From Candidatus Nealsonbacteria bacterium (GTDB taxonomy: Bacteria > Patescibacteriota > Minisyncoccia > Minisyncoccales > JAGMDC01): a DNA stretch of 64,000 bases. Where the stretch lies: the NCBI GenBank assembly GCA_030612885.1, contig JAUWMZ010000001.1:68032-132031 (forward strand), written 5' to 3'. A model generated the notes under the pieces. The model was not told the origin of the DNA, ran no database searches, and saw only the letters and a program-made list of their open reading frames with translations. Below are positions 42,199 through 61,353 of this stretch, piece after piece. Each line of letters opens with the position of its first letter. The stretch's first letter is position 1. The position numbers and the translations under genes were made by a program.

Positions 42199-43974
42199 TT
42201 ATTCAGATAATTCTTTTTTCGCTTTTTTAATTTTCAGGACTTCTTCAGGAGAAGTGGTAATGATTTGTTCTTCGGCATAAGAAGCAACAACGCTGATTGC
42301 TACGTGTTTTTGGCCGGCGAAAAACAATCCCTCCCCTACTGCCGCTTCTAAGAGCATATATTTTTCTTCGTCGGTTAAATTAAATGTTTTTTGAACTACT
42401 TCAATAGTGGCTGGACTTTGTTTCATTAAAAGCTGTAAAGATGAATTAGCGATAATCGGCTGGCCGTATTCGGATTTCATAAAGTCAGATACGTCTTGGG
42501 TAATAGTAGTTACCCCTAACCAATATTTCCGCGCTCTTTTGCAAACTCCGAACAGGAAAGAGGCGCCATCTTCGGATTGCATTATCCACCAGGCCTCATC
42601 TACTACTAATATCCTTTTTTTGAGCTCGGCGCGAATTGAATTCCAGATATACCTCATTATGACATACATTGCCATCGGCTTGAGTCCTTCTTCCATATCT
42701 CTAATTCCAAAAACCACAAATTTATTCTTCATTGAAATATTGGAAGGTTGATTAAAGAACTGGGCATATGTTCCTTTAGTAAATTTTGTTAAACGTTTAA
42801 CCATGGATTCAGCTCCTTCCATTGTGTCCAGGACTGCTTCTAGATCTTCCATCAAAGGAATGTTTTGATTCCAGGCAGAAGGATCGCTTTCCGGAGTAAT
42901 GTCTTTGGCCGCATAAGTTTCAGTAAGCGCTCGGTCCATAATAGCGTCTTCTTCCGAGCTTAAGCCGCCAAGCATAATTCTTAATAATCCTACTAAATTT
43001 ATAATGTTTGAACGAAGCACGTCTTCGGGTTTTTCGTCTTCCCGGGGCATAGGCAGTTCAAAAGGATTGATATGGTTGGGAGAAGATAAAGAGACATTAA
43101 TATAAGAACCGCCTACGCTGTCAGAGAGGGTTTTATATTCGTTTTCCGGGTCAATAATAATACAGTCGGTTCCCAACATTAAAGAACGAAGAATCTCCAA
43201 CTTCACGAAAAACGACTTTCCCGCGCCCGATTTAGCGAATATAACCGAGTTCGCGTTCTCCAAACTAAAGCGGTCAAATAAAACCAAAGAACTATTGTGC
43301 TGATTAATTCCACAGAGAATCCCTTCGTTTGAAGAGAGGTCAAAAGAGATGAAAGGAAAGATGCTTGATAGAGGGTCAGTATTAATAGTAGTATGGATAC
43401 CCATCTGGTCTAATCCGTAAGGCGAGGAAGAAATAAATCCTTCTTTCTGCCGGTAAAGGGATGGTTTTATATAAACAAGACGGGATTCTAAAACAGAACG
43501 CAAATCTGTTTCAATGTCTCTTAATTTTTTTGAAGTGTCTCCGTAAATAGTAATATAGAGCCCAAACTTAAACATTCTTTCTTGAGCTGTTTGAAGACGG
43601 TCTCTCAGGGATTCAATGTCCCGATAAGCAGTTTCTAAAACCGGGTCTCGAATCAATCCTTTTTCTTCTCTTTCGGAAACTTCTGCTTCAATTTCAGTTA
43701 CTTTTTTCCTTAATTTATTTAAAATCATCTCTGTTTTAATGGGATGGATAAAGAAAGAGATATCCATTGGAGTATCTAAATTTATAATAGGTGAAAGCCA
43801 GCCAGTGGTGAGATATCTGGGATAACAGAAAATAAAAAAAGATTTAGCCAATTTTTCGCCTAAGCGGATATAATTGGGGTTAATTTCAATTGCAGAAGGA
43901 GCGATAATATCTACAACATTAATAACCTCTGGTTTAGGCACTTTTTCTTTTTTTTTGAAGAATGGTAGTTTCAT
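42199..43974 (-). CDS. VirB4/TraC-type type IV secretion ATPase
   Basis: Walker A FAKSGAGKSFFVK, IIIDPENEY, and Walker B LVVDEAWW. N-terminal YPRYLTTGWLSPII segment is typical of Gram-positive-type VirB4. Confidence 0.85.
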   Translation of the reverse strand: MKLPFFKKKEKVPKPEVINVVDIIAPSAIEINPNYIRLGEKLAKSFFIFCYPRYLTTGWLSPIINLDTPMDISFFIHPIKTEMILNKLRKKVTEIEAEVSEREEKGLIRDPVLETAYRDIESLRDRLQTAQERMFKFGLYITIYGDTSKKLRDIETDLRSVLESRLVYIKPSLYRQKEGFISSSPYGLDQMGIHTTINTDPLSSIFPFISFDLSSNEGILCGINQHNSSLVLFDRFSLENANSVIFAKSGAGKSFFVKLEILRSLMLGTDCIIIDPENEYKTLSDSVGGSYINVSLSSPNHINPFELPMPREDEKPEDVLRSNIINLVGLLRIMLGGLSSEEDAIMDRALTETYAAKDITPESDPSAWNQNIPLMEDLEAVLDTMEGAESMVKRLTKFTKGTYAQFFNQPSNISMKNKFVVFGIRDMEEGLKPMAMYVIMRYIWNSIRAELKKRILVVDEAWWIMQSEDGASFLFGVCKRARKYWLGVTTITQDVSDFMKSEYGQPIIANSSLQLLMKQSPATIEVVQKTFNLTDEEKYMLLEAAVGEGLFFAGQKHVAISVVASYAEEQIITTSPEEVLKIKKAKKELSE

Positions 43975-52760: not shown

Positions 52761-54287
52761 TCAGTTTTCTTTTATTCTATACATCAGAGCTTCGGAAAGA
52801 TGGTCAAAAGAGATACTTTCTGACTGGTCTAAATCAGCAATAGTTCGGCTGACTTTGAGAGTGCGATGAAATCCGCGGGCAGAAAGTTTGCCGGAATCAA
52901 CATATTTTTTCAATAATGCCTGGGATTTCAAGTCAATTTGGCAGAATTTCTTAATTTCAGGAATTGACATTTCAGAATTAGTCAAACTCAACGAGAACCG
53001 TTCTCGCCCGCTCAAATTTTGCTTTGCAAAACTTAGGCGGGCTCGTTGAATTTGACGGGCTTTGATCACTTTTTCTCTTATTTCAGAACTGGAATTTTTT
53101 TCATCTTCAGCCACTAGCCTCTCATATTTCAGTTGAGGAACTTCAATAAAAAGGTCAATTCTGTCCATTAAAGGTCCGGATAGTTTTCTTCTATATTTAC
53201 TAATTTGAGAAGGGGTACAGGTACATTGTCTTTCCGGGTCTCCATAATAACCGCAGGGGCAAGGGTTAGAAGCAGCAACTAAGGTAAAGCGGGCTGGCAA
53301 GGTTAAGCGGTTTTTCGCCCGGAGAATGGTAATTTCCCCTTCTTCAATCGGCTGGCGTAAAGATTCTAAAACATCTCTGTGAAATTCTGGAAATTCATCT
53401 AAAAATAAAATGCCTCTGTGAGCTAAAGTGATTTCTCCGGGTCTGGGAGGATTGCCTCCGCCAATCAGGGCTGGTTCAGATGAAGCATGATGAGGCGAGC
53501 GAAAAGGCCTTAATTTAATTAAAGCCGTTCCCAAAGGCAGAAGTCCGCTGATGCTGTAAATTTTAGTGACTTCCAGGGATTCTTCAAAAGAAAGAGGGGG
53601 CAGGATAGAAGGAATGGCTTTGGCTAAAAGTGTTTTTCCAGCGCCAGGCGGTCCCAACATCAAAAGATGATGGCTGCCAGCAGCAGCAATTTCCAATGCC
53701 CTTTTAGCGTATCCCTGCCCTTTAATCCAGGCAAGGTCAACAGAATAGTTCTGTTCCTCCAAAAATTTTTCCTTGTCTGTTTGAAAAGAAGAAATCATTT
53801 TCTTTCCTTCCAAGTAATCAATGACTTCTTTTAAGGTTTCTACTCCGATTATTTTTATTGCTTCTGGCTTGGCATCAGAGGCATCATCTTCTTTAATTAA
53901 GTTTATTAAACCTGCCTCTGAAGCATTAGCTTTTGGCAGGATTATTTCTTTTAATCCGTTTTTCTTAGCTGCCAATACCAAGGAAAGAGTTCCTTTTATT
54001 GGTCTTAGCTTCCCGTCTAAAGCTAATTCTCCAACAAAAATTTTATTCCGAGCATCAAATCTTACTTGCTCAGAGGCAGATAAAAAAGCTAAAGCAATAG
54101 GCAGGTCGTATAAAGAACCTTCTTTTTTTAAATCAGCCGGAGCTAAATTTACTAAAACCCGAATGGGCTGGCTAAAAGGAGATTTAAATTTAGAACTGTT
54201 TATTGCTGAACCAACTCTTTCTTTTGACTCTTCAACCGCTTTGTCAGGCAGGCCGACGATATTAAGGGAGGCGATAATACCCCATCT
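52761..54287 (-). pseudogene. comM: comM (YifB-family Mg-chelatase-like competence ATPase), 5'-truncated by insertion
   Basis: Frame is open from 54287. Hand translation gives ...SLNIVGLPDKAVEESKERVGSAINSSKFKSPFSQPIRVLVNLAPADLKKEGSLYDLPIALAFL..., then GPPGAGKTL and ILFLDEFPEF. No start codon and no first 25-30 codons are present. A recombinase gene abuts it. Confidence 0.8.
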
Positions 54288-55840
54288 TCAATAGGAAACA
54301 TCTGCACTAATCGTTGATTATCTACTGGGACATATCCAGTTATCCACGCTTCACCCTTGCGTGAATCAAGTATTATTTTGTCAAGGATACAATTTAGAAA
54401 TTGTTGTTTTTGTTCAGGAGTTATAGATTCTAACCGTTGCATAACTAAACGAGAAAAATGTTTGACAGCCTCAATAAACATAGGTTTGCTAACTGCTTGT
54501 GTTAATTTACTTTCATTCTCTTTTATTTTATCTTCCAGTTCCTTTTCTATCTGAGTAAGTTCACTGATTTTCTTTAGAAATAATTCTTTAGGTATATTCC
54601 CCTCTGTATAAAGTTCTAATAGTTTATCTTTTTTATAATCTATTTTTTCTTTTTCTCTGGACCAATCTTTTTCCTCTTTTTCTAATAACTTTTGATTTTC
54701 AATAACTTTTTTAGTTAAAAGTGAAATACCACTAATAAGTATTTTAGGATTTTTTACTGCGTTGCTGACAGCAGTCCATACGCTATTATCTAACTGATTA
54801 ACCCTTACCATCTTTGCATTACAATCTTTAGGAAAGGGGAATTTTTTATGACGATTGTTGCATCTGTAATACTGATGACTTCTGACAGTCTCGCCTGTAA
54901 AACTTGACCCACACAATTTACATTTTATAAGTCCACTTAGTAAATAGAAATGTTTTCTGTCAGCATACGGCTTATAATTTTTTGATAATAGTTTCTGAAC
55001 AAATCTAAATTTCTCTTTAGATATTATAACAGGAAATTTAATAGGAATCCATTCGCTCCTATCTCTTTTTCTCCTTCCAGTTTTTATTGTTCTTTTATAT
55101 TTTTTTCCATTTTCAGTTTCCACGCTATAATTTTTACAATAATAACCTGTTCCAACACAAGACTCATTTCTTAAAATCCTTCCTACTACACTATTGTTCC
55201 ATTTTATTCCTCCTTTTCTAGGTTTAATACCCTTCAATGTTAATTCTTTAACAACCCTGCTCAAACTCTGAAATTTAATATAAAAGTCAAACATTAAAAT
55301 TACAATTTCTGCTTCTTTCTTGTTAATTTTATAATAACCCTCTTTTTCTGGAGTTTTTTTAATATAATCATAGCCAAATGGAGGAGTGCTTCCTACGATT
55401 CCTTTTTGTTTCGCCTTAAAAATTCTCCCCCTTCTGGTCCTTTCTAAAATCCTTTCTTTTTCGTATTCTGCTGTGGCACCAAGCACATTAAACATAAATC
55501 TTCCTTCTGGAGTGTCAGAGATTGGTTTATCACCTATAAAGATTTCTATGTTTGCTTTTTTAAACTCTTCAACTATAATCCCCTGCTGATAAAGGTTTCT
55601 GGATAACCGGTCCACCGAATGAACATATACGGCTTCAAATAAACCCTTTTTAACATCTCTCCTTAAACAATCTAAAGATGGTCTATCTAAACTCTCTCCA
55701 GAGTAGCCGTTATCTAAATATTCCTCAACAATTTCAAAATTCTTGCAGATTTCTCTTAATTCTGCTATTTGCGATTTAATTGTCTTTTGTTCTTCCTGTT
55801 TCTCGGTAGAAACACGACAATATAATGCTACTTTTTTCAT
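54200..55840 (-). CDS. large serine recombinase (integrase)
   Basis: The catalytic region reads VALYCRVSTEKQ and VHSVDRLSRN. A recombinase domain follows, then a zinc ribbon (CKLCGSSFTGE...YYRCNN) and a coiled coil. Confidence 0.9.
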   Translation of the reverse strand: MKKVALYCRVSTEKQEEQKTIKSQIAELREICKNFEIVEEYLDNGYSGESLDRPSLDCLRRDVKKGLFEAVYVHSVDRLSRNLYQQGIIVEEFKKANIEIFIGDKPISDTPEGRFMFNVLGATAEYEKERILERTRRGRIFKAKQKGIVGSTPPFGYDYIKKTPEKEGYYKINKKEAEIVILMFDFYIKFQSLSRVVKELTLKGIKPRKGGIKWNNSVVGRILRNESCVGTGYYCKNYSVETENGKKYKRTIKTGRRKRDRSEWIPIKFPVIISKEKFRFVQKLLSKNYKPYADRKHFYLLSGLIKCKLCGSSFTGETVRSHQYYRCNNRHKKFPFPKDCNAKMVRVNQLDNSVWTAVSNAVKNPKILISGISLLTKKVIENQKLLEKEEKDWSREKEKIDYKKDKLLELYTEGNIPKELFLKKISELTQIEKELEDKIKENESKLTQAVSKPMFIEAVKHFSRLVMQRLESITPEQKQQFLNCILDKIILDSRKGEAWITGYVPVDNQRLVQMFPIEDGVLSPPLISSACLTKRLKSQKKELVQQ

Positions 55841-58454: not shown

Positions 58455-59393
58455 ATGAAAATAAAGATGAAAAATTATATTGTCTATCAAAGAGTTTCCA
58501 CTAAAGAGCAAGCAAAGGAAGGGATTTCATTAGAGGCAATGTTTAATTCCTGTATTAGGTATATCAAAAACCAAGACAATGGAAGATTAGTTAAGGTTTA
58601 TGAAGATGGAGGAATTTCAGGAGGTAGTATTAGTAAAAGACCAGCATTAAAAGAGTTGATAAAAGACATTGAGACGCAACGCTTATCCATTGATATAGTT
58701 TTAGTTTGGAATTTAGATAGGTTGAGTAGGAGCCGTAAGGACCTAGATTTCCTAAAGGATTTTTTTGACAAAAAGAAGATAGAACTCTATTCTGTTTCCG
58801 ATGGAAAGATTGACACTTCAACTGCTTCTGGAAATCTTACTTTCGGCATAAAGGGAGTTGTCTCACAATATTATCGTGATGATATTGCAGAAAAAACTCA
58901 TAACGCTTTATACAATAAAGCAACTAATGGAGAATTTAACGGGGGAATGCCTCCTTTTGGTTATTTACTTAATGAGAAAAATAAATATGTAATTGATGGA
59001 GAAAAATCCGAAATTATAAAATATATTTATCAAAGATTTCTTAAATTAAAATCCTTTTGTAAATTAGCGAAGGAATTAAGTGAAAAAGGAAAATTGTCTC
59101 CAAAAGGAAGAAAGTGGTCCGATGTTCAGATAAAAAGAATTCTAACTCATCCCGTTTATAGAGGGGCTTATTCTTGGAATAGGACCGGAAAAAGAAAAAT
59201 AAATGAAGAGAATTTGATTATAAGAGAAAATTCTCATCCAGCAATTATTAGTAAAGAATTATGGGATAAGGTCCAAAAAATCATCTCTTCTAAAAGTTCA
59301 ACTAAAATACAAAAACAAGAAAAGGATTATATTGTAGAAACCCCGTTATTTACCGATGGAAATAGGAATAGAGAATTAAAATATAAAATTTAA
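58455..59393 (+). CDS. serine recombinase, short form (resolvase + recombinase domains, no zinc ribbon/coiled coil)
   Basis: IVYQRVSTKEQ, VWNLDRLSRS, and a recombinase domain (PPFGY...HPVYRG...HPAIISKELW). Ends where large serine recombinases normally continue. Confidence 0.85.
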   Translation: MKIKMKNYIVYQRVSTKEQAKEGISLEAMFNSCIRYIKNQDNGRLVKVYEDGGISGGSISKRPALKELIKDIETQRLSIDIVLVWNLDRLSRSRKDLDFLKDFFDKKKIELYSVSDGKIDTSTASGNLTFGIKGVVSQYYRDDIAEKTHNALYNKATNGEFNGGMPPFGYLLNEKNKYVIDGEKSEIIKYIYQRFLKLKSFCKLAKELSEKGKLSPKGRKWSDVQIKRILTHPVYRGAYSWNRTGKRKINEENLIIRENSHPAIISKELWDKVQKIISSKSSTKIQKQEKDYIVETPLFTDGNRNRELKYKI

Positions 59394-59453
59394 TATTTAC
59401 TTTCTTTTCCAGTGGGGCTATTATTAAGTTAGAACAATTAAATATTCAAATTG

Positions 59454-59598
59454 CCTAAGTCCTTGTTTTAGGATATGGCATAAAAACCCGTCTAAGGTAT
59501 CAAGCTCCTCGTCAGAGCACCTTAGACGGGTTATATCCCGAAAGGGGTATAGGTAGCGAAAGCTATCGCTGGCGGGGAGCTTTGTATTTTCAACCAGC
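59454..59598 (+). ncRNA. candidate structured RNA with 11-nt GAAA-tetraloop receptor and two GAAA hairpins (unknown class)
   Basis: Receptor CCTAAG (59454-59459) / TATGG (59474-59478) around a UCCU-UGUUUU-AGGA cap. 12-bp hairpin 59487-59498/59519-59530. GAAA-capped hairpins 59532-59551 and 59552-59567. Loop AAGCTCC (59502-59508) is complementary to GGAGCTT (59576-59582). GCTGG/CCAGC pair at 59568-59598. Confidence 0.55.
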
Positions 59599-59621
59599 GA
59601 ATAAGACATCAATAAAAAATT

Positions 59622-60080
59622 ATGTTAGAAGAATTAAAAATAGGAATTAAAGAATTTTTATCTCCCAAAGTTTCTATAAAGAGAATAATAAGAGATACTA
59701 TAAAATACGGCATTACTCTTTTGATTTTATTTGGACTAGGATGGGCAATCGGTTTTTTATTGAGTGCTATTTTGGGATTACTTTTTATGTTCTCTTTTGA
59801 CCGAATTTGTAAATATAAATGGAAACAAATATTCCAAGAGAAGAAAAAGAGAACAATCCTATTAGTTATTTCTTTTATTATAGTAATTTTGGTAATAGAT
59901 ATGATTGATTATCAACATCAAAAAAATCAAGAGATTAGAGATTTTTGCACAAAAGCGTATATTATACAAGGAAGAGACAGAATTAAGTTTTTTAATTCAG
60001 TAAATGAATGTATAGATATTGTAAAAAGAGCAGGAGGAATAAAGGGCTTTCAACAGCTTTTAAAAGAAAGTTATAAGTGA
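59622..60080 (+). CDS. membrane protein of unknown function
   Basis: This 152-aa protein has three hydrophobic spans, and the structured RNA candidate lies immediately upstream. Confidence 0.45.
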   Translation: MLEELKIGIKEFLSPKVSIKRIIRDTIKYGITLLILFGLGWAIGFLLSAILGLLFMFSFDRICKYKWKQIFQEKKKRTILLVISFIIVILVIDMIDYQHQKNQEIRDFCTKAYIIQGRDRIKFFNSVNECIDIVKRAGGIKGFQQLLKESYK

Positions 60081-60120: not shown

Positions 60121-61353
60121 ATGCATAAGCAACAATCTAATGAGAAAGGGATTTCTGGATTACAAATATTGGTAATTTTTTGTTTTTTATTTTTATTGTT
60201 TTTGATTTTCTCTCCATCAAAAACTCCTGAAGAATATCCTGGAAGTCAACAAGAGCAACAACAAGTTATAAAATATACAGCGGTCAGTCTTAATTTTCGC
60301 TCAGTTGATAATATCAATAAAGTCCTTCGTGTCCTTGATAAAGGAACTCCAGTTATAATAGTTGAAGAAGGAGGAAAATGGACTTTAGTAGAAGTAGATG
60401 AACAACAAGGTTATGTAGCAACAAGATATTTAGCATCTGAAAAGATTGTGGAAGAAGAAAAAGAAGTGGTTTATTCTCCTCCACCAACAAATTCAAGAGT
60501 TGAGGAATTAGAACAGAAAGTTGAGGAATTAGAGAAAAAACAACAAGAAGCTCAAGAAAAGATGAAGAAAGAAAAAGAAGAATTGGAAAGACAAACTCAA
60601 GCACTTAAAGAACAATTACAACAACAACCTCAAGGAATTTATAAAACTTCAGAACTTGTAGAAGGATTAAGTGAATTGATAGTCGCAATAGGTTGTTTTG
60701 ATTATTCTGGAGACATTATGACTGGTTCAGGAGTTGTAATTGGTAAGGGTAAAGCATTGAGTTCTGATAGAGTAAGCACTGCGATTTTAACTAATTATCA
60801 CATTATCAAGAATGCTGATATGACGCTTGAGCATCCTTGTGCGGTAGGATACTCTCCTAACCCCACTAAAGGGCTTACTGATTTTTATTTTGCTAACCCA
60901 GTTTATTATCCTAGTATAATATCTGACTCTGAAATGGAATTGATAGATTTTTACTTTCTTAGCATAGAAGAAAAACTTAGAATACCTGAATACGGAGATA
61001 TTGAAATAATTCCTAATGCTTCTTTAGAGATTACCGAATATGTCCCTATTATTTGTGAAGAAGATAAAATAAAGGTAGGAGAAGAAATGATTGTTCTCGG
61101 TTATCCTTCTATCGGAGGAGATTATTTAACTGCCACAGAGGGAATAATTAGCGGATACGAAGGAAAGCATTACCTTACTACCTCAGCAAAAATAGAACAT
61201 GGAAATTCTGGAGGAGGTGCGTTTCTGAAATCATCTGGCTGCCTTACTGGAATGCCTACCTTTGTAAGGTTAGGTGAGATGGAAAGTTTTGCTCGGTTAA
61301 TAAATATGCCTGTGCTTGCACGAGATTATCTTTCAAAAATTTGGGATTACTAA
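60121..61353 (+). CDS. SH3b domain / coiled coil / trypsin-like serine protease
   Basis: Signal anchor, an SH3-like segment (LNFRSVDNINKVLRVLDKGTPVIIVEEGGKWTLVEV), a Q/E/K coiled coil, and a protease core with HGNSGGGAF. Confidence 0.7.
   Translation: MHKQQSNEKGISGLQILVIFCFLFLLFLIFSPSKTPEEYPGSQQEQQQVIKYTAVSLNFRSVDNINKVLRVLDKGTPVIIVEEGGKWTLVEVDEQQGYVATRYLASEKIVEEEKEVVYSPPPTNSRVEELEQKVEELEKKQQEAQEKMKKEKEELERQTQALKEQLQQQPQGIYKTSELVEGLSELIVAIGCFDYSGDIMTGSGVVIGKGKALSSDRVSTAILTNYHIIKNADMTLEHPCAVGYSPNPTKGLTDFYFANPVYYPSIISDSEMELIDFYFLSIEEKLRIPEYGDIEIIPNASLEITEYVPIICEEDKIKVGEEMIVLGYPSIGGDYLTATEGIISGYEGKHYLTTSAKIEHGNSGGGAFLKSSGCLTGMPTFVRLGEMESFARLINMPVLARDYLSKIWDY

What the first reader, a model, noticed from the sequence alone, without database searches (positions are those of the whole stretch)
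59394..59621. Unclassified structured RNA with a canonical GAAA-tetraloop/11-nt-receptor pair, inside the mobile element
The 228-nt gap between the short serine recombinase and a membrane-protein gene is packed with plus-strand RNA architecture:
- An exact 11-nt tetraloop receptor (CCUAAG...UAUGG) capped by a 4-bp hairpin.
- A 12-bp hairpin.
- Two adjacent GAAA-capped hairpins of 8 and 6 bp.
- A 7-nt loop-to-downstream complementarity (AAGCUCC/GGAGCUU) that would form a pseudoknot.

I could not match the element order to c-di-GMP-I, group I/II intron domains, glmS or hammerhead as I remember them. It could be a riboswitch or ribozyme controlling the downstream operon, or an element-borne regulatory RNA.
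Basis: seen in the sequence. Interest (0 to 1): 0.75.

Follow-up and report, generated by a model that had tools for sequence, protein, structure and literature searches.

The report
Known LOOT RNA in mobile element
The gap holds a real, tightly folded small RNA, but it belongs to the already catalogued LOOT family (Rfam RF03000), whose function is unknown and which here turns out to be typical of integrated mobile elements in very small "candidate phyla" bacteria.

Summary
The claim that it is unclassified fails. Window 59452-59567 matches Rfam RF03000 (LOOT RNA) over the full model at 91.8 bits (gathering score 46.4, E 3e-16).

I collected 121 non-redundant LOOT copies from genomes and metagenomes, nearly all labelled Patescibacteria. 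They show features that the Rfam model lacks:
- A conserved extended -10 promoter and a conserved 5' leader.
It competes with the apical hairpin of P2 and is followed directly by a conserved U-tract, so it looks like a terminator.
- The next gene lies on the same strand in 81 of 93 loci and starts about 60 nt after the model end.
- About half of the loci with enough upstream sequence carry a divergent serine-recombinase gene within 4-5 kb.
- In about 15% of loci the 3' strand of P2 is complementary to the start-codon region of the downstream gene. In this window only a decayed copy remains.

No held paper assigns LOOT a function. My best inference (about 0.45) is a promoter-proximal leader or attenuator for cargo genes. 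The main rival is a stand-alone small RNA. Novelty: already known. Interest is modest.

The parts
59396..59424 (+). Promoter-like site: -35 TTTACT, 17-nt spacer, -10 TATTAT (59419-59424)
   Evidence: The consensus scan finds it, but that alone is not significant. A TGnTAnAAT extended -10 box sits at the equivalent place in the 49-sequence alignment (consensus). Function is inferred, not shown.
59434..59451 (+). Conserved 5' leader ACAAUUAAAUAUUCAAAU (family consensus ACAAUUUAAUA); probable transcript start near 59434
   Evidence: The ACAAyUUAAU box is conserved 5-20 nt upstream of P1 in most homologues. The start site is inferred from its spacing to the -10 box.
59452..59567 (+). LOOT RNA core as defined by Rfam RF03000 (P1 with receptor, J1/2, P2, P3, P4)
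   Evidence: cmscan gives 91.8 bits against a gathering score of 46.4, E 3e-16, model positions 1-121 of 121.
59452..59480 (+). P1: outer helix 59452-55/59477-80, 11-nt tetraloop receptor CCUAAG (59454-59)/UAUGG (59474-78), inner 4-bp helix 59460-63/59470-73
   Evidence: Sequence, Rfam alignment and covariation in P1 (helices 1-2). The canonical G.U form of the receptor occurs in only 7 of 120 LOOTs. Most have CCUAAA/CAUGG.
59481..59486 (+). J1/2 linker UAAAAA with the A-run 59482-59485
   Evidence: Upper-case, highly conserved positions in the Rfam consensus. In my own set this run is fixed by the search pattern.
59487..59530 (+). P2: 12-bp helix 59487-98/59519-30 with a 20-nt apical region that contains the small hairpin P2b (59504-07/59515-18)
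   Evidence: 11 of 12 P2 pairs show changes on both sides (helix 4). P2b is 80.7% paired, with UA:23/CG:18 at one pair.
59532..59551 (+). P3: 8-bp hairpin with GAAA loop (59540-43), the probable partner of the receptor
   Evidence: 8 of 8 pairs covary and 99.5% of cells are paired (helix 8). Docking to the receptor is inferred.
59552..59567 (+). P4: 6-bp hairpin with GAAA loop (59558-61)
   Evidence: 5 of 6 pairs covary and 99.7% of cells are paired (helix 9).
59569..59582 (+). 3' strand of the pseudoknot helix PK, pairing with 59502-59515 (14 bp). It lies outside the Rfam model and is mutually exclusive with P2b.
   Evidence: On a plain MAFFT alignment, 13 of 14 pairs change on both sides and about 91% of cells are paired (helices 5-7). 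Each locus's own tail gives -23.9 kcal/mol against -13.8 for the tails of other loci, in 120 sequences.
59581..59590 (+). U-rich tract UUUGUAUUUU directly after PK; probable 3' end (terminator-like)
   Evidence: T makes up 72% of the 9 nt after PK in 49 homologues, against 26% overall. Of 120 sequences, 113 have at least 5 T in 10. The standard hairpin+U scan finds no canonical terminator.
59594..59598 (+). CCAGC, able to pair with GCUGG 59568-72 ("anti-tail"); weak in this window
   Evidence: Part of the minimum-free-energy fold. An equivalent, much stronger hairpin exists in only about a third of homologues. The window's own tail ranks 19th of 49.
59598..59613 (+). Decayed copy of the P2 5' strand (GCGAAUAAGACAUCAA against CGUCUAAGGUAUCAA, 11 of 15), ending 8 nt before the start codon at 59622
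   Evidence: Intact copies that abut the start codon occur in about 15% of LOOT loci. In the window the pairing with the P2 3' strand is weak, so this part is doubtful.
59622..60080 (+). First co-oriented downstream gene (152-aa membrane protein, no Pfam or PHROG family), followed by an SH3 + trypsin-like protease gene at 60121-61353
   Evidence: ORF list and family scans. The downstream gene is co-oriented in 81 of 93 LOOT loci.

Best explanation
Identity (about 0.98, shared with rivals 1-3): this is a gene for a LOOT RNA, Rfam family RF03000. The family was found by comparative genomics of metagenomes in 2017 and has no published function.

Mechanism (the confidence value in this field refers to this part; it is inferred unless marked as shown):
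- Transcription: the RNA is transcribed on the + strand from its own conserved extended -10 promoter, starting near 59434.
- Folding: it forms P1 (tetraloop receptor), P2, and P3 and P4 (GAAA loops). The helices are shown by covariation. Docking of the P3 GAAA loop into the receptor is inferred.
- Pseudoknot: when the tail 59568-59582 emerges, it invades the small apical hairpin P2b and forms a 14-bp pseudoknot helix with 59502-59515. Both pairings are shown by covariation.
- Termination: because this helix is followed at once by a conserved U-tract, it acts as the stem of an intrinsic terminator and releases an RNA of about 155 nt.
- Read-through: transcripts in which P2b persists read through into the co-oriented cargo genes. 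The first starts about 30 nt after the U-tract, which leaves little room for a separate promoter.
- Overall role: LOOT is a promoter-proximal leader or attenuator that gates expression of the rightward cargo operon of serine-recombinase integrative elements in Patescibacteria. In a subset of loci it also carries an antisense strand (the 3' strand of P2) against the start site of the first cargo gene. In this window that second layer has decayed.
For: Identity:
- Full-length Rfam hit at 91.8 bits. All 18 homologous loci tested also hit LOOT.

Structure:
- 43 of 48 pairs show changes on both sides on an unfitted alignment. 89% of cells are paired, against about 40% when the 3' partners are slid.
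- PK: 13 of 14 pairs covary. Own-tail energy is -23.9 kcal/mol against -13.8 for other loci's tails.
- P2b covaries as well, although it excludes PK.
- Conserved U-tract after PK.
- Conserved TGnTAnAAT box and 5' leader.

Coupling to the downstream gene:
- Co-oriented in 81 of 93 loci. Binomial p = 1e-13 against 0.5 and 9e-5 against 0.7. The median start is 60 nt after the Rfam end.
- The P2 3' strand is complementary to the start-codon region in its own locus: best-ranked in 13 of 118 loci (about 1 expected), against 2 of 118 for the control strand. 15 of the 18 strong sites end within 5 nt of a start codon or overlap one.

Element context:
- A serine recombinase gene lies within 4 kb upstream in 17 of 38 loci, and within 5 kb in 15 of 28. 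22 of 24 upstream recombinase genes are on the opposite strand.
- Recombinase genes abut tRNA genes in L019, L034, L054 and L104.
- Neighbouring genes are typical of mobile and defence regions.
Against: - There are no expression data, so the promoter, start site, 3' end and read-through are all inferred.
- The standard terminator scan finds nothing, and a pseudoknot acting as a terminator stem is unusual.
- No signal that would shift the P2b/PK balance is known.
- The start-site complementarity exists in only about 15% of loci and is decayed in this window.
- The anti-tail hairpin is present in only about a third of loci.
- Co-orientation is also partly expected from ordinary operon strand bias.
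- Rfam classes the family as a trans-acting sRNA gene.
- ORF calling was crude (longest non-overlapping ORFs), so start positions are approximate.
Confidence: 0.45

Rival explanations
1. It is a LOOT RNA that works as a stand-alone, trans-acting small RNA, or as a protein-binding or scaffold RNA. It has its own promoter and a constitutive terminator. The pseudoknot only compacts the fold and protects the 3' end, and the neighbouring genes are irrelevant. This is Rfam's own typing (Gene; sRNA).
For: - Conserved promoter and terminator-like end define a discrete unit of about 155 nt.
- No conserved neighbouring protein family. The upstream proteins of about 240 aa are unrelated to each other.
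- Conserved single-stranded stretches (5' ACAAUUUAAUA and the J1/2 A-run) could be seeds or binding sites.
- Two GNRA loops plus one receptor could allow intermolecular assembly, as seen for other orphan bacterial RNAs (papers listed).
Against: - The strong co-orientation and the tight, regular spacing to the next start codon are not expected for an independent sRNA gene.
- In about 15% of loci the P2 3' strand is complementary to the adjacent gene's start site, which points to action in cis.
- Two mutually exclusive pairings (P2b and PK) both covary, which suggests switching rather than one static fold.
Confidence: 0.35
2. It is a LOOT RNA that is a riboswitch. A small molecule or ion stabilises the tetraloop-receptor fold and so decides between P2b (read-through) and PK (termination).
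For: - The layout of a conserved fold, competing helices and a U-tract resembles a riboswitch aptamer with its expression platform.
- The element sits in the 5' region of a co-oriented gene.
Against: - The downstream genes are heterogeneous: small membrane proteins, DNA methylases, nucleases, surface proteins and many proteins with no family. A metabolite riboswitch normally precedes a coherent set of genes.
- The conserved unpaired nucleotides are few (the A-run and the GNRA loops) and are explained by known tertiary motifs.
- No riboswitch family matches at E <= 1.
Confidence: 0.08
3. It is a LOOT RNA that is catalytic (self-cleaving or processing), or that takes part directly in the serine recombinase reaction, for example as a guide or directionality cofactor.
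For: - It lies close to serine recombinase genes in about half of the loci that can be assessed.
- It has a compact fold rich in tertiary motifs.
Against: - No ribozyme family matches.
- The recombinase is usually 1-5 kb away on the other strand, and it is absent from about half of the loci with enough sequence.
- The recombinases have ordinary Resolvase, Recombinase and Zn-ribbon domains with no extra RNA-binding domain.
- No RNA-assisted serine recombinase is known to me (own knowledge).
Confidence: 0.05
4. It is not an RNA. It is a DNA-level element (attachment site, origin, or resolvase binding sites) or a chance set of inverted repeats.
For: - The region lies next to a recombinase gene.
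- The - strand also folds well (z = -4.95).
Against: - G.U pairs are frequent and tolerated only on the + strand, for example UG:41 and GU:26 at single pairs.
- The GNRA loops and the 11-nt receptor are RNA tertiary motifs that read correctly on one strand only.
- Stem sequences change freely while pairing is kept, in 121 copies.
- The Rfam E-value is 3e-16.
Confidence: 0.02

Closest known systems
LOOT RNA (Rfam RF03000; from the Weinberg et al. 2017 survey, PMC5737381, entered into Rfam 14 from the ZWD collection as a metagenome-based family, PMC7779021)
   Same: All model features are present in the same order: P1 with tetraloop receptor, A-rich J1/2, long P2 with an apical hairpin, a GAAA-capped 8-bp P3 and a GNRA-capped 6-bp P4. 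The match covers the full model at 91.8 bits.
   Different: Nothing that affects membership.
- The window carries the canonical CCUAAG/UAUGG receptor, which only 7 of 120 copies have. Most have CCUAAA/CAUGG.
- P1b is short (4 bp).
- The 3' pseudoknot strand, the U-tract, the 5' leader and the promoter are conserved across the family but lie outside the 121-position Rfam model. I could not read the 2017 supplement, so I cannot say whether its authors noted them.
Immunity RNAs co-transcribed with their target in temperate elements: phage P1/P7 c4 RNA (a1b1 / a'b' / a2b2 arrangement) and satellite phage P4 CI RNA (premature termination in the early leader). This comparison rests on my own knowledge.
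   Same: What it works like:
- An element-borne RNA at the head of an operon that diverges from the integration module.
- In about 15% of LOOT loci there are three matching segments: the P2 5' strand, the P2 3' strand and a copy of the 5' strand at the downstream start codon. This recalls a1 / a' / a2.
- A terminator lies inside the leader.
   Different: - There is no sequence or structure similarity, and no Rfam hit to the C4 families.
- In c4 the antisense segments sit in loops. In LOOT the antisense segment is locked in helix P2.
- The function of LOOT is untested.
- In this window the downstream copy has decayed.
Riboswitches built on a GAAA tetraloop/receptor pair, for example c-di-GMP-I (GEMM-I)
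   Same: A GAAA tetraloop and an 11-nt receptor hold two helices side by side, in a 5' leader position with a terminator-like element.
   Different: - No covariance-model match at E <= 1.
- The order of elements differs.
- The downstream genes have no common function.
Orphan "ornate" bacterial RNAs linked to phages and mobile elements (GOLLD, ROOL, HEARO, raiA)
   Same: Found by comparative genomics, rich in tertiary motifs, of unknown function and often element-borne. Some form RNA-only multimers (10.1101/2024.12.08.627333, listed).
   Different: - LOOT is much smaller (about 155 nt) and does not match those families.
- No held paper reports a LOOT structure or assembly.

Membership tests
LOOT RNA (RF03000) | Covariance-model score at or above the curated gathering score (46.4 bits) | tested here: met
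   91.8 bits. E is 3.2e-16 for the 64-kb window and 2e-18 for 59300-59700.
LOOT RNA (RF03000) | Full-length, untruncated match to the model on one strand | tested here: met
   Model positions 1-121 of 121, + strand, no truncation, mean posterior 0.96.
LOOT RNA (RF03000) | First hairpin containing a tetraloop-receptor motif (CCUAA...AUGG) | tested here: met
   CCUAAG at 59454-59 and UAUGG at 59474-78. The CCUAA and AUGG positions are upper-case in the model consensus.
LOOT RNA (RF03000) | A-rich linker (AAAA) followed by a long hairpin P2 | tested here: met
   AAAA at 59482-85. The 12-bp P2 is 59487-98 with 59519-30.
LOOT RNA (RF03000) | Two adjacent 3' hairpins capped by GAAA and GNRA loops | tested here: met
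   P3 is 8 bp with GAAA and P4 is 6 bp with GAAA. Both covary across homologues.
LOOT RNA (RF03000) | Homologues retrieved through the element are themselves LOOT | tested here: met
   All 18 genome loci tested score 81-97 bits to RF03000, with one copy per locus.
   With permissive filters and E <= 1 on 59300-59700, the only hits are LOOT, mir-5984 (19.7 bits against a gathering score of 95) and RUF1 (17.9 against 70). No riboswitch, ribozyme or intron family appears.
Metabolite riboswitch (general) | Downstream genes form a coherent functional set linked to one ligand | tested here: not met
   The first downstream proteins in the first 51 loci are heterogeneous, and 64 different Pfam families occur among 106 downstream ORFs with no family in more than 2.
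Canonical intrinsic terminator | Local G+C-rich hairpin with a loop of 3-8 nt, directly followed by a U-run | tested here: not met
   The scan finds none in 59200-59800. The U-run is present and conserved, but the helix before it is long-range, a pseudoknot with the P2 apical region. Whether it terminates transcription cannot be tested with these tools.
P1/P7 c4-type immunity RNA | Match to the Rfam C4 families; antisense segments complementary to the ribosome-binding region of the downstream gene | tested here: inconclusive
   There is no Rfam match, so it is not a member. The functional feature, complementarity to the downstream start region, is present in 13-20 of 118 LOOT loci but is only vestigial in this window.

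The most novel reading that the evidence does not exclude
LOOT is the early-leader control RNA of a widespread, undescribed family of serine-recombinase integrative elements in Patescibacteria (CPR). A tertiary-fold-dependent pseudoknot serves as the terminator stem and decides whether transcription enters the cargo genes. In some elements the same RNA also masks the first cargo gene's start site. If true, this would give LOOT its first function, add a new kind of intrinsic terminator, and describe the first regulatory RNA of CPR mobile elements.
Probability: 0.3. Interest if true: 0.55.

Novelty: already known. Interest (0 to 1): 0.3.

Why it matters
As submitted, as a possible new RNA class, the finding does not stand. 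The RNA is a textbook member of a family that has been in Rfam since release 14.

What remains of value is that LOOT is still an orphan. No paper in the held library assigns it a function. As I recall, it was originally known only from unclassified metagenomic DNA. The comparison made here does three things:
- It places LOOT in Patescibacteria.
- It ties LOOT to integrative elements that carry serine recombinases.
- It shows conserved parts missing from the Rfam model: a promoter, a 5' leader, a 14-bp pseudoknot that competes with the apical hairpin, a U-tract, and in some loci a segment antisense to the next gene's start.

Together these turn "function unknown" into a testable hypothesis of cis-acting attenuation. 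The Rfam seed could also be extended by about 40 nt.

Tried and rejected
- Viral origin. None has paired P3/P4 arms, so all are chance matches. blastn of 59430-59600 against the phage and plasmid collections found nothing.
- A conserved protein partner. BLAST clustering of three ORFs on each side, Pfam and PHROG scans and jackhmmer among the upstream proteins of about 240 aa found no family that always accompanies LOOT. The direct pairing of the short recombinase and LOOT seen in the window is rare. Only L353 also has a co-oriented recombinase directly upstream.
- The 3' hairpin GCUGG...CCAGC that dominates the minimum-free-energy fold. An equivalent "anti-tail" exists in only about a third of loci and is weak in the window, so I do not treat it as a core part.
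- A closing helix between the 5' ACAA and the 3' UUGU. Both are nearly invariant, so covariation cannot test it. I dropped it.
- The start-site mimic as a recombination scar or target-site duplication. I rejected this because the two copies flank only about 100 nt of RNA-coding sequence, and the second copy always abuts a start codon.
- A first P2b pair count used columns that were off by one. I repeated it correctly.
- Literature. Searches for LOOT motif, LOOT RNA, RF03000 and co-mentions with other orphan RNAs returned only catalogue listings. The 2017 supplement is not held.
- The first Rfam call on the viral loci exceeded the size limit.

Full report
**1. Observation**

The gap 59394-59621 lies between a 312-aa Resolvase+Recombinase ORF (58455-59393) and a 152-aa membrane-protein ORF (59622-60080).
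- The exact 11-nt receptor: CCUAAG at 59454-59 and UAUGG at 59474-78, closed by a 4-bp helix.
- A 12-bp helix, 59487-98 with 59519-30.
- GAAA-capped hairpins of 8 bp (59532-51) and 6 bp (59552-67).
- The AAGCUCC/GGAGCUU complementarity.

The region folds far better than shuffles (z = -5.5). It has 46% G+C in a surrounding of about 30%.

**2. Identity**

A scan of the whole window against Rfam 15 at gathering thresholds returns one hit: RF03000, LOOT RNA, at 59452-59567 on the + strand. It scores 91.8 bits against a gathering score of 46.4, with E = 3e-16, over model positions 1-121 of 121. A permissive rescan of 59300-59700 adds only noise-level hits.

What the literature holds on LOOT:
- It is one of the candidate RNAs from the 2017 Weinberg et al. 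survey (PMC5737381).
- It entered Rfam 14 as a "metagenomic-based" family (PMC7779021).
- It gained two covarying pairs in Rfam 15 (PMC11701678).
- The CaCoFold paper mentions it for having about 43 bp in six helices and 28 "cross-covariations" (PMC7657543).
- No held paper gives it a function. The 2017 supplement is not held.

**3. Homologues**

I searched with a pattern built from the conserved positions.
- Species-representative genomes: 119 loci, of which 51 (including the window) have fully paired P3 and P4 arms. The split from the chance matches is clean and bimodal.
- Metagenomes: 120 loci, of which 78 are true.
- After removing duplicates there are 121 distinct LOOTs.
- Rfam confirmed all 18 genome loci that I tested.
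- By record title almost all are Patescibacteria/CPR assemblies from many classes. A few bins are labelled Gammaproteobacteria, Sediminibacterium or Desulfobacterota.
- None of the matches in viral contigs is real. The phage and plasmid collections have no similar DNA.

**4. Anatomy beyond the Rfam model**

*Upstream.* An extended -10 box (TGnTAnAAT) is followed after 6-8 nt by a conserved ACAAUUUAAUA leader. In the window these are TATTAT at 59419-24 and ACAAUUAAAU starting at 59434.

*Pseudoknot.* The 15-20 nt after P4 are conserved in all copies and are complementary to the apical part of P2.
- In the window, 59502-59515 pairs with 59569-59582. That is 14 bp, not 7.
- On an unfitted MAFFT alignment of 49 sequences, 13 of these 14 pairs change on both sides and about 91% of cells are paired.
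- Each locus's own tail binds its own apical region at -23.9 kcal/mol, against -13.8 for the tails of other loci (120 sequences).

*Competing hairpin.* This helix excludes the small apical hairpin P2b of the Rfam model. P2b nevertheless also covaries and takes at least four different sequence forms in the family. Two exclusive pairings that are both maintained suggest a conformational switch. This may also explain the "cross-covariations" reported for LOOT, although I did not test that.

*U-tract.* The pseudoknot's 3' strand is always followed by a U-rich tract. T makes up 72% of the next 9 nt, against 26% overall. The ensemble therefore looks like an intrinsic terminator whose stem is long-range. 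The standard hairpin scan finds no canonical terminator.

**5. Context**

There is no conserved neighbouring protein family. Three regularities do stand out.

- *Co-oriented downstream gene.* The next gene downstream is on the same strand in 81 of 93 loci. Its median start is 60 nt after the Rfam end, about 35 nt after the U-tract.
- *Divergent serine recombinase upstream.*
  - Among loci with at least 4 kb of upstream sequence, 17 of 38 have a serine recombinase gene there. With at least 5 kb the figure is 15 of 28.
  - Downstream the figure is about 10%.
  - 22 of 24 upstream recombinase genes are on the opposite strand.
  - In L019, L034, L054 and L104 the recombinase gene abuts a tRNA gene.
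  - Other neighbours include DUF5659, AAA_25, ParB, methylases, restriction and defence ATPases, and HTH_17.
- *Complementarity to the downstream start site.*
  - In 13 of 118 loci the P2 3' strand is best matched to its own downstream 60 nt. About 1 is expected, and the control strand gives 2.
  - 15 of the 18 strong sites end within 5 nt of a start codon or overlap one.
  - These sites are copies of J1/2 plus the P2 5' strand.

The typical layout is therefore: att site or tRNA, recombinase (leftward), a few leftward genes, then LOOT (rightward) and cargo (rightward).

The window fits this layout:
- G+C falls at about 54 kb.
- A 546-aa large serine recombinase (54200-55840, - strand) lies beside a ComM-like gene.
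- It is followed by a 478-aa ORF and an HTH_17 gene on the - strand.
- Then, on the + strand, come the short recombinase, LOOT, a membrane protein and an SH3/trypsin-like protease.
- The window's own copy of the start-site mimic has decayed (59598-59613, 11 of 15 identical).

**6. Mechanism**

Shown by comparative data: the helices, the pseudoknot, the competing hairpin, the U-tract, the promoter box, the orientation and spacing of the next gene, and the element context.

Inferred: LOOT is a promoter-proximal leader in which formation of the pseudoknot triggers termination, releasing an RNA of about 155 nt. Failure to form it lets transcription enter the cargo genes. In some elements the P2 3' strand can additionally mask the first start site.

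I put this at about 0.45. A stand-alone sRNA with a constitutive terminator is at about 0.35, a ligand riboswitch at about 0.08, a ribozyme or recombinase cofactor at about 0.05, and a non-RNA explanation at about 0.02. The nearest functional analogies, from my own knowledge, are the P1 c4 and P4 CI immunity RNAs. LOOT is not a member of those families.

**7. Caveats**

- The invariance of the pattern positions in my set is by construction.
- ORFs were called crudely.
- Taxon labels come from record titles.
- There are no expression data.
- Pseudoknot pairs were counted on a sequence alignment in which indels blur some columns.

**8. Verdict**

Novelty is "already known". Interest is modest (0.3). 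It rests on the family still lacking a function and on the extra conserved features found here.

Noticed in passing
window 52761-55840: The mobile element seems to be inserted in a comM/yifB-like gene. The 406-aa Mg-chelatase-like ORF (52761-53981, - strand) has its Mg_chelatase domain starting at residue 82, so it looks N-terminally truncated. Its 5' end faces the stop codon of a 546-aa large serine recombinase gene (54200-55840, - strand). G+C falls from about 0.39 to about 0.30 here. The right end of the element is not in the window.
   Followed up: partly
window 54200-55840 and 58455-59393: The element carries two serine recombinase genes. One is full length and has the zinc-ribbon domain (546 aa, - strand). 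The other is short (312 aa, + strand), has no Zn_ribbon_recom Pfam hit and is too short to hold a full C-terminal region. Whether the short one is a truncated copy, a resolvase or invertase, or a directionality partner is unknown.
   Followed up: no
L117, L053, L325, L336, L129, L040, L255, L343, L322 and others (positions): In about 15% of LOOT loci an exact 9-15-nt copy of J1/2 plus the P2 5' strand (for example AAAACCCACUACAGG in L117) recurs about 100 nt downstream and directly abuts the start codon of the next gene. The sequence differs between loci but matches within each locus, which gives a three-way covariation.
   Followed up: yes
L019, L034, L054, L104: Large serine recombinase genes end inside or right next to tRNA genes (Leu, His, Glu, Leu). 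This suggests these Patescibacteria elements integrate at tRNA genes, which is more usual for tyrosine integrases. tRNA genes occur in 18 of 50 LOOT loci.
   Followed up: partly
L017, L033, L064, L081, L117 (0.8-1.5 kb upstream of LOOT, opposite strand): A small DUF5659 protein (about 84 aa) recurs upstream of LOOT in five genome loci. Its role is unknown.
   Followed up: no
L059, L064, L082, L092, L127, L133, L088, L095: True LOOT copies occur in assemblies labelled uncultured Gammaproteobacteria, Sediminibacterium or Desulfobacterota. These may be mislabelled or contaminated bins, or real transfers outside Patescibacteria. I did not resolve this.
   Followed up: no
LOOT family, receptor position (window 59459 and 59474): The non-Watson-Crick pair of the receptor varies in a patterned way: A.C in 77 copies, C.U in 30, G.U (the canonical form, as in the window) in 7, and C.C in 5. 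As I recall, A.C and G.U wobble pairs are isosteric.
   Followed up: partly
L280 (LOOT at oriented coordinates 194-310): This metagenome copy looks chimeric. Its P2 5' strand (CUUUCGAGGG) does not pair with its 3' strand (CGUUGAACCG), while the downstream start-site copy matches the 3' strand. It may come from recombination between two LOOT variants or from an assembly chimera.
   Followed up: no
window 59424-59612 (- strand): A 62-aa ORF overlaps the RNA on the opposite strand. It lies entirely within the structured RNA and is most likely spurious.
   Followed up: no
window 42199-43974: A 591-aa protein with a TraG P-loop / AAA_10 / HerA-type ATPase domain lies in a block of co-oriented genes (about 37.9-46 kb) outside the low-G+C element. 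It may belong to a secretion, conjugation or pilus-type system.
   Followed up: no
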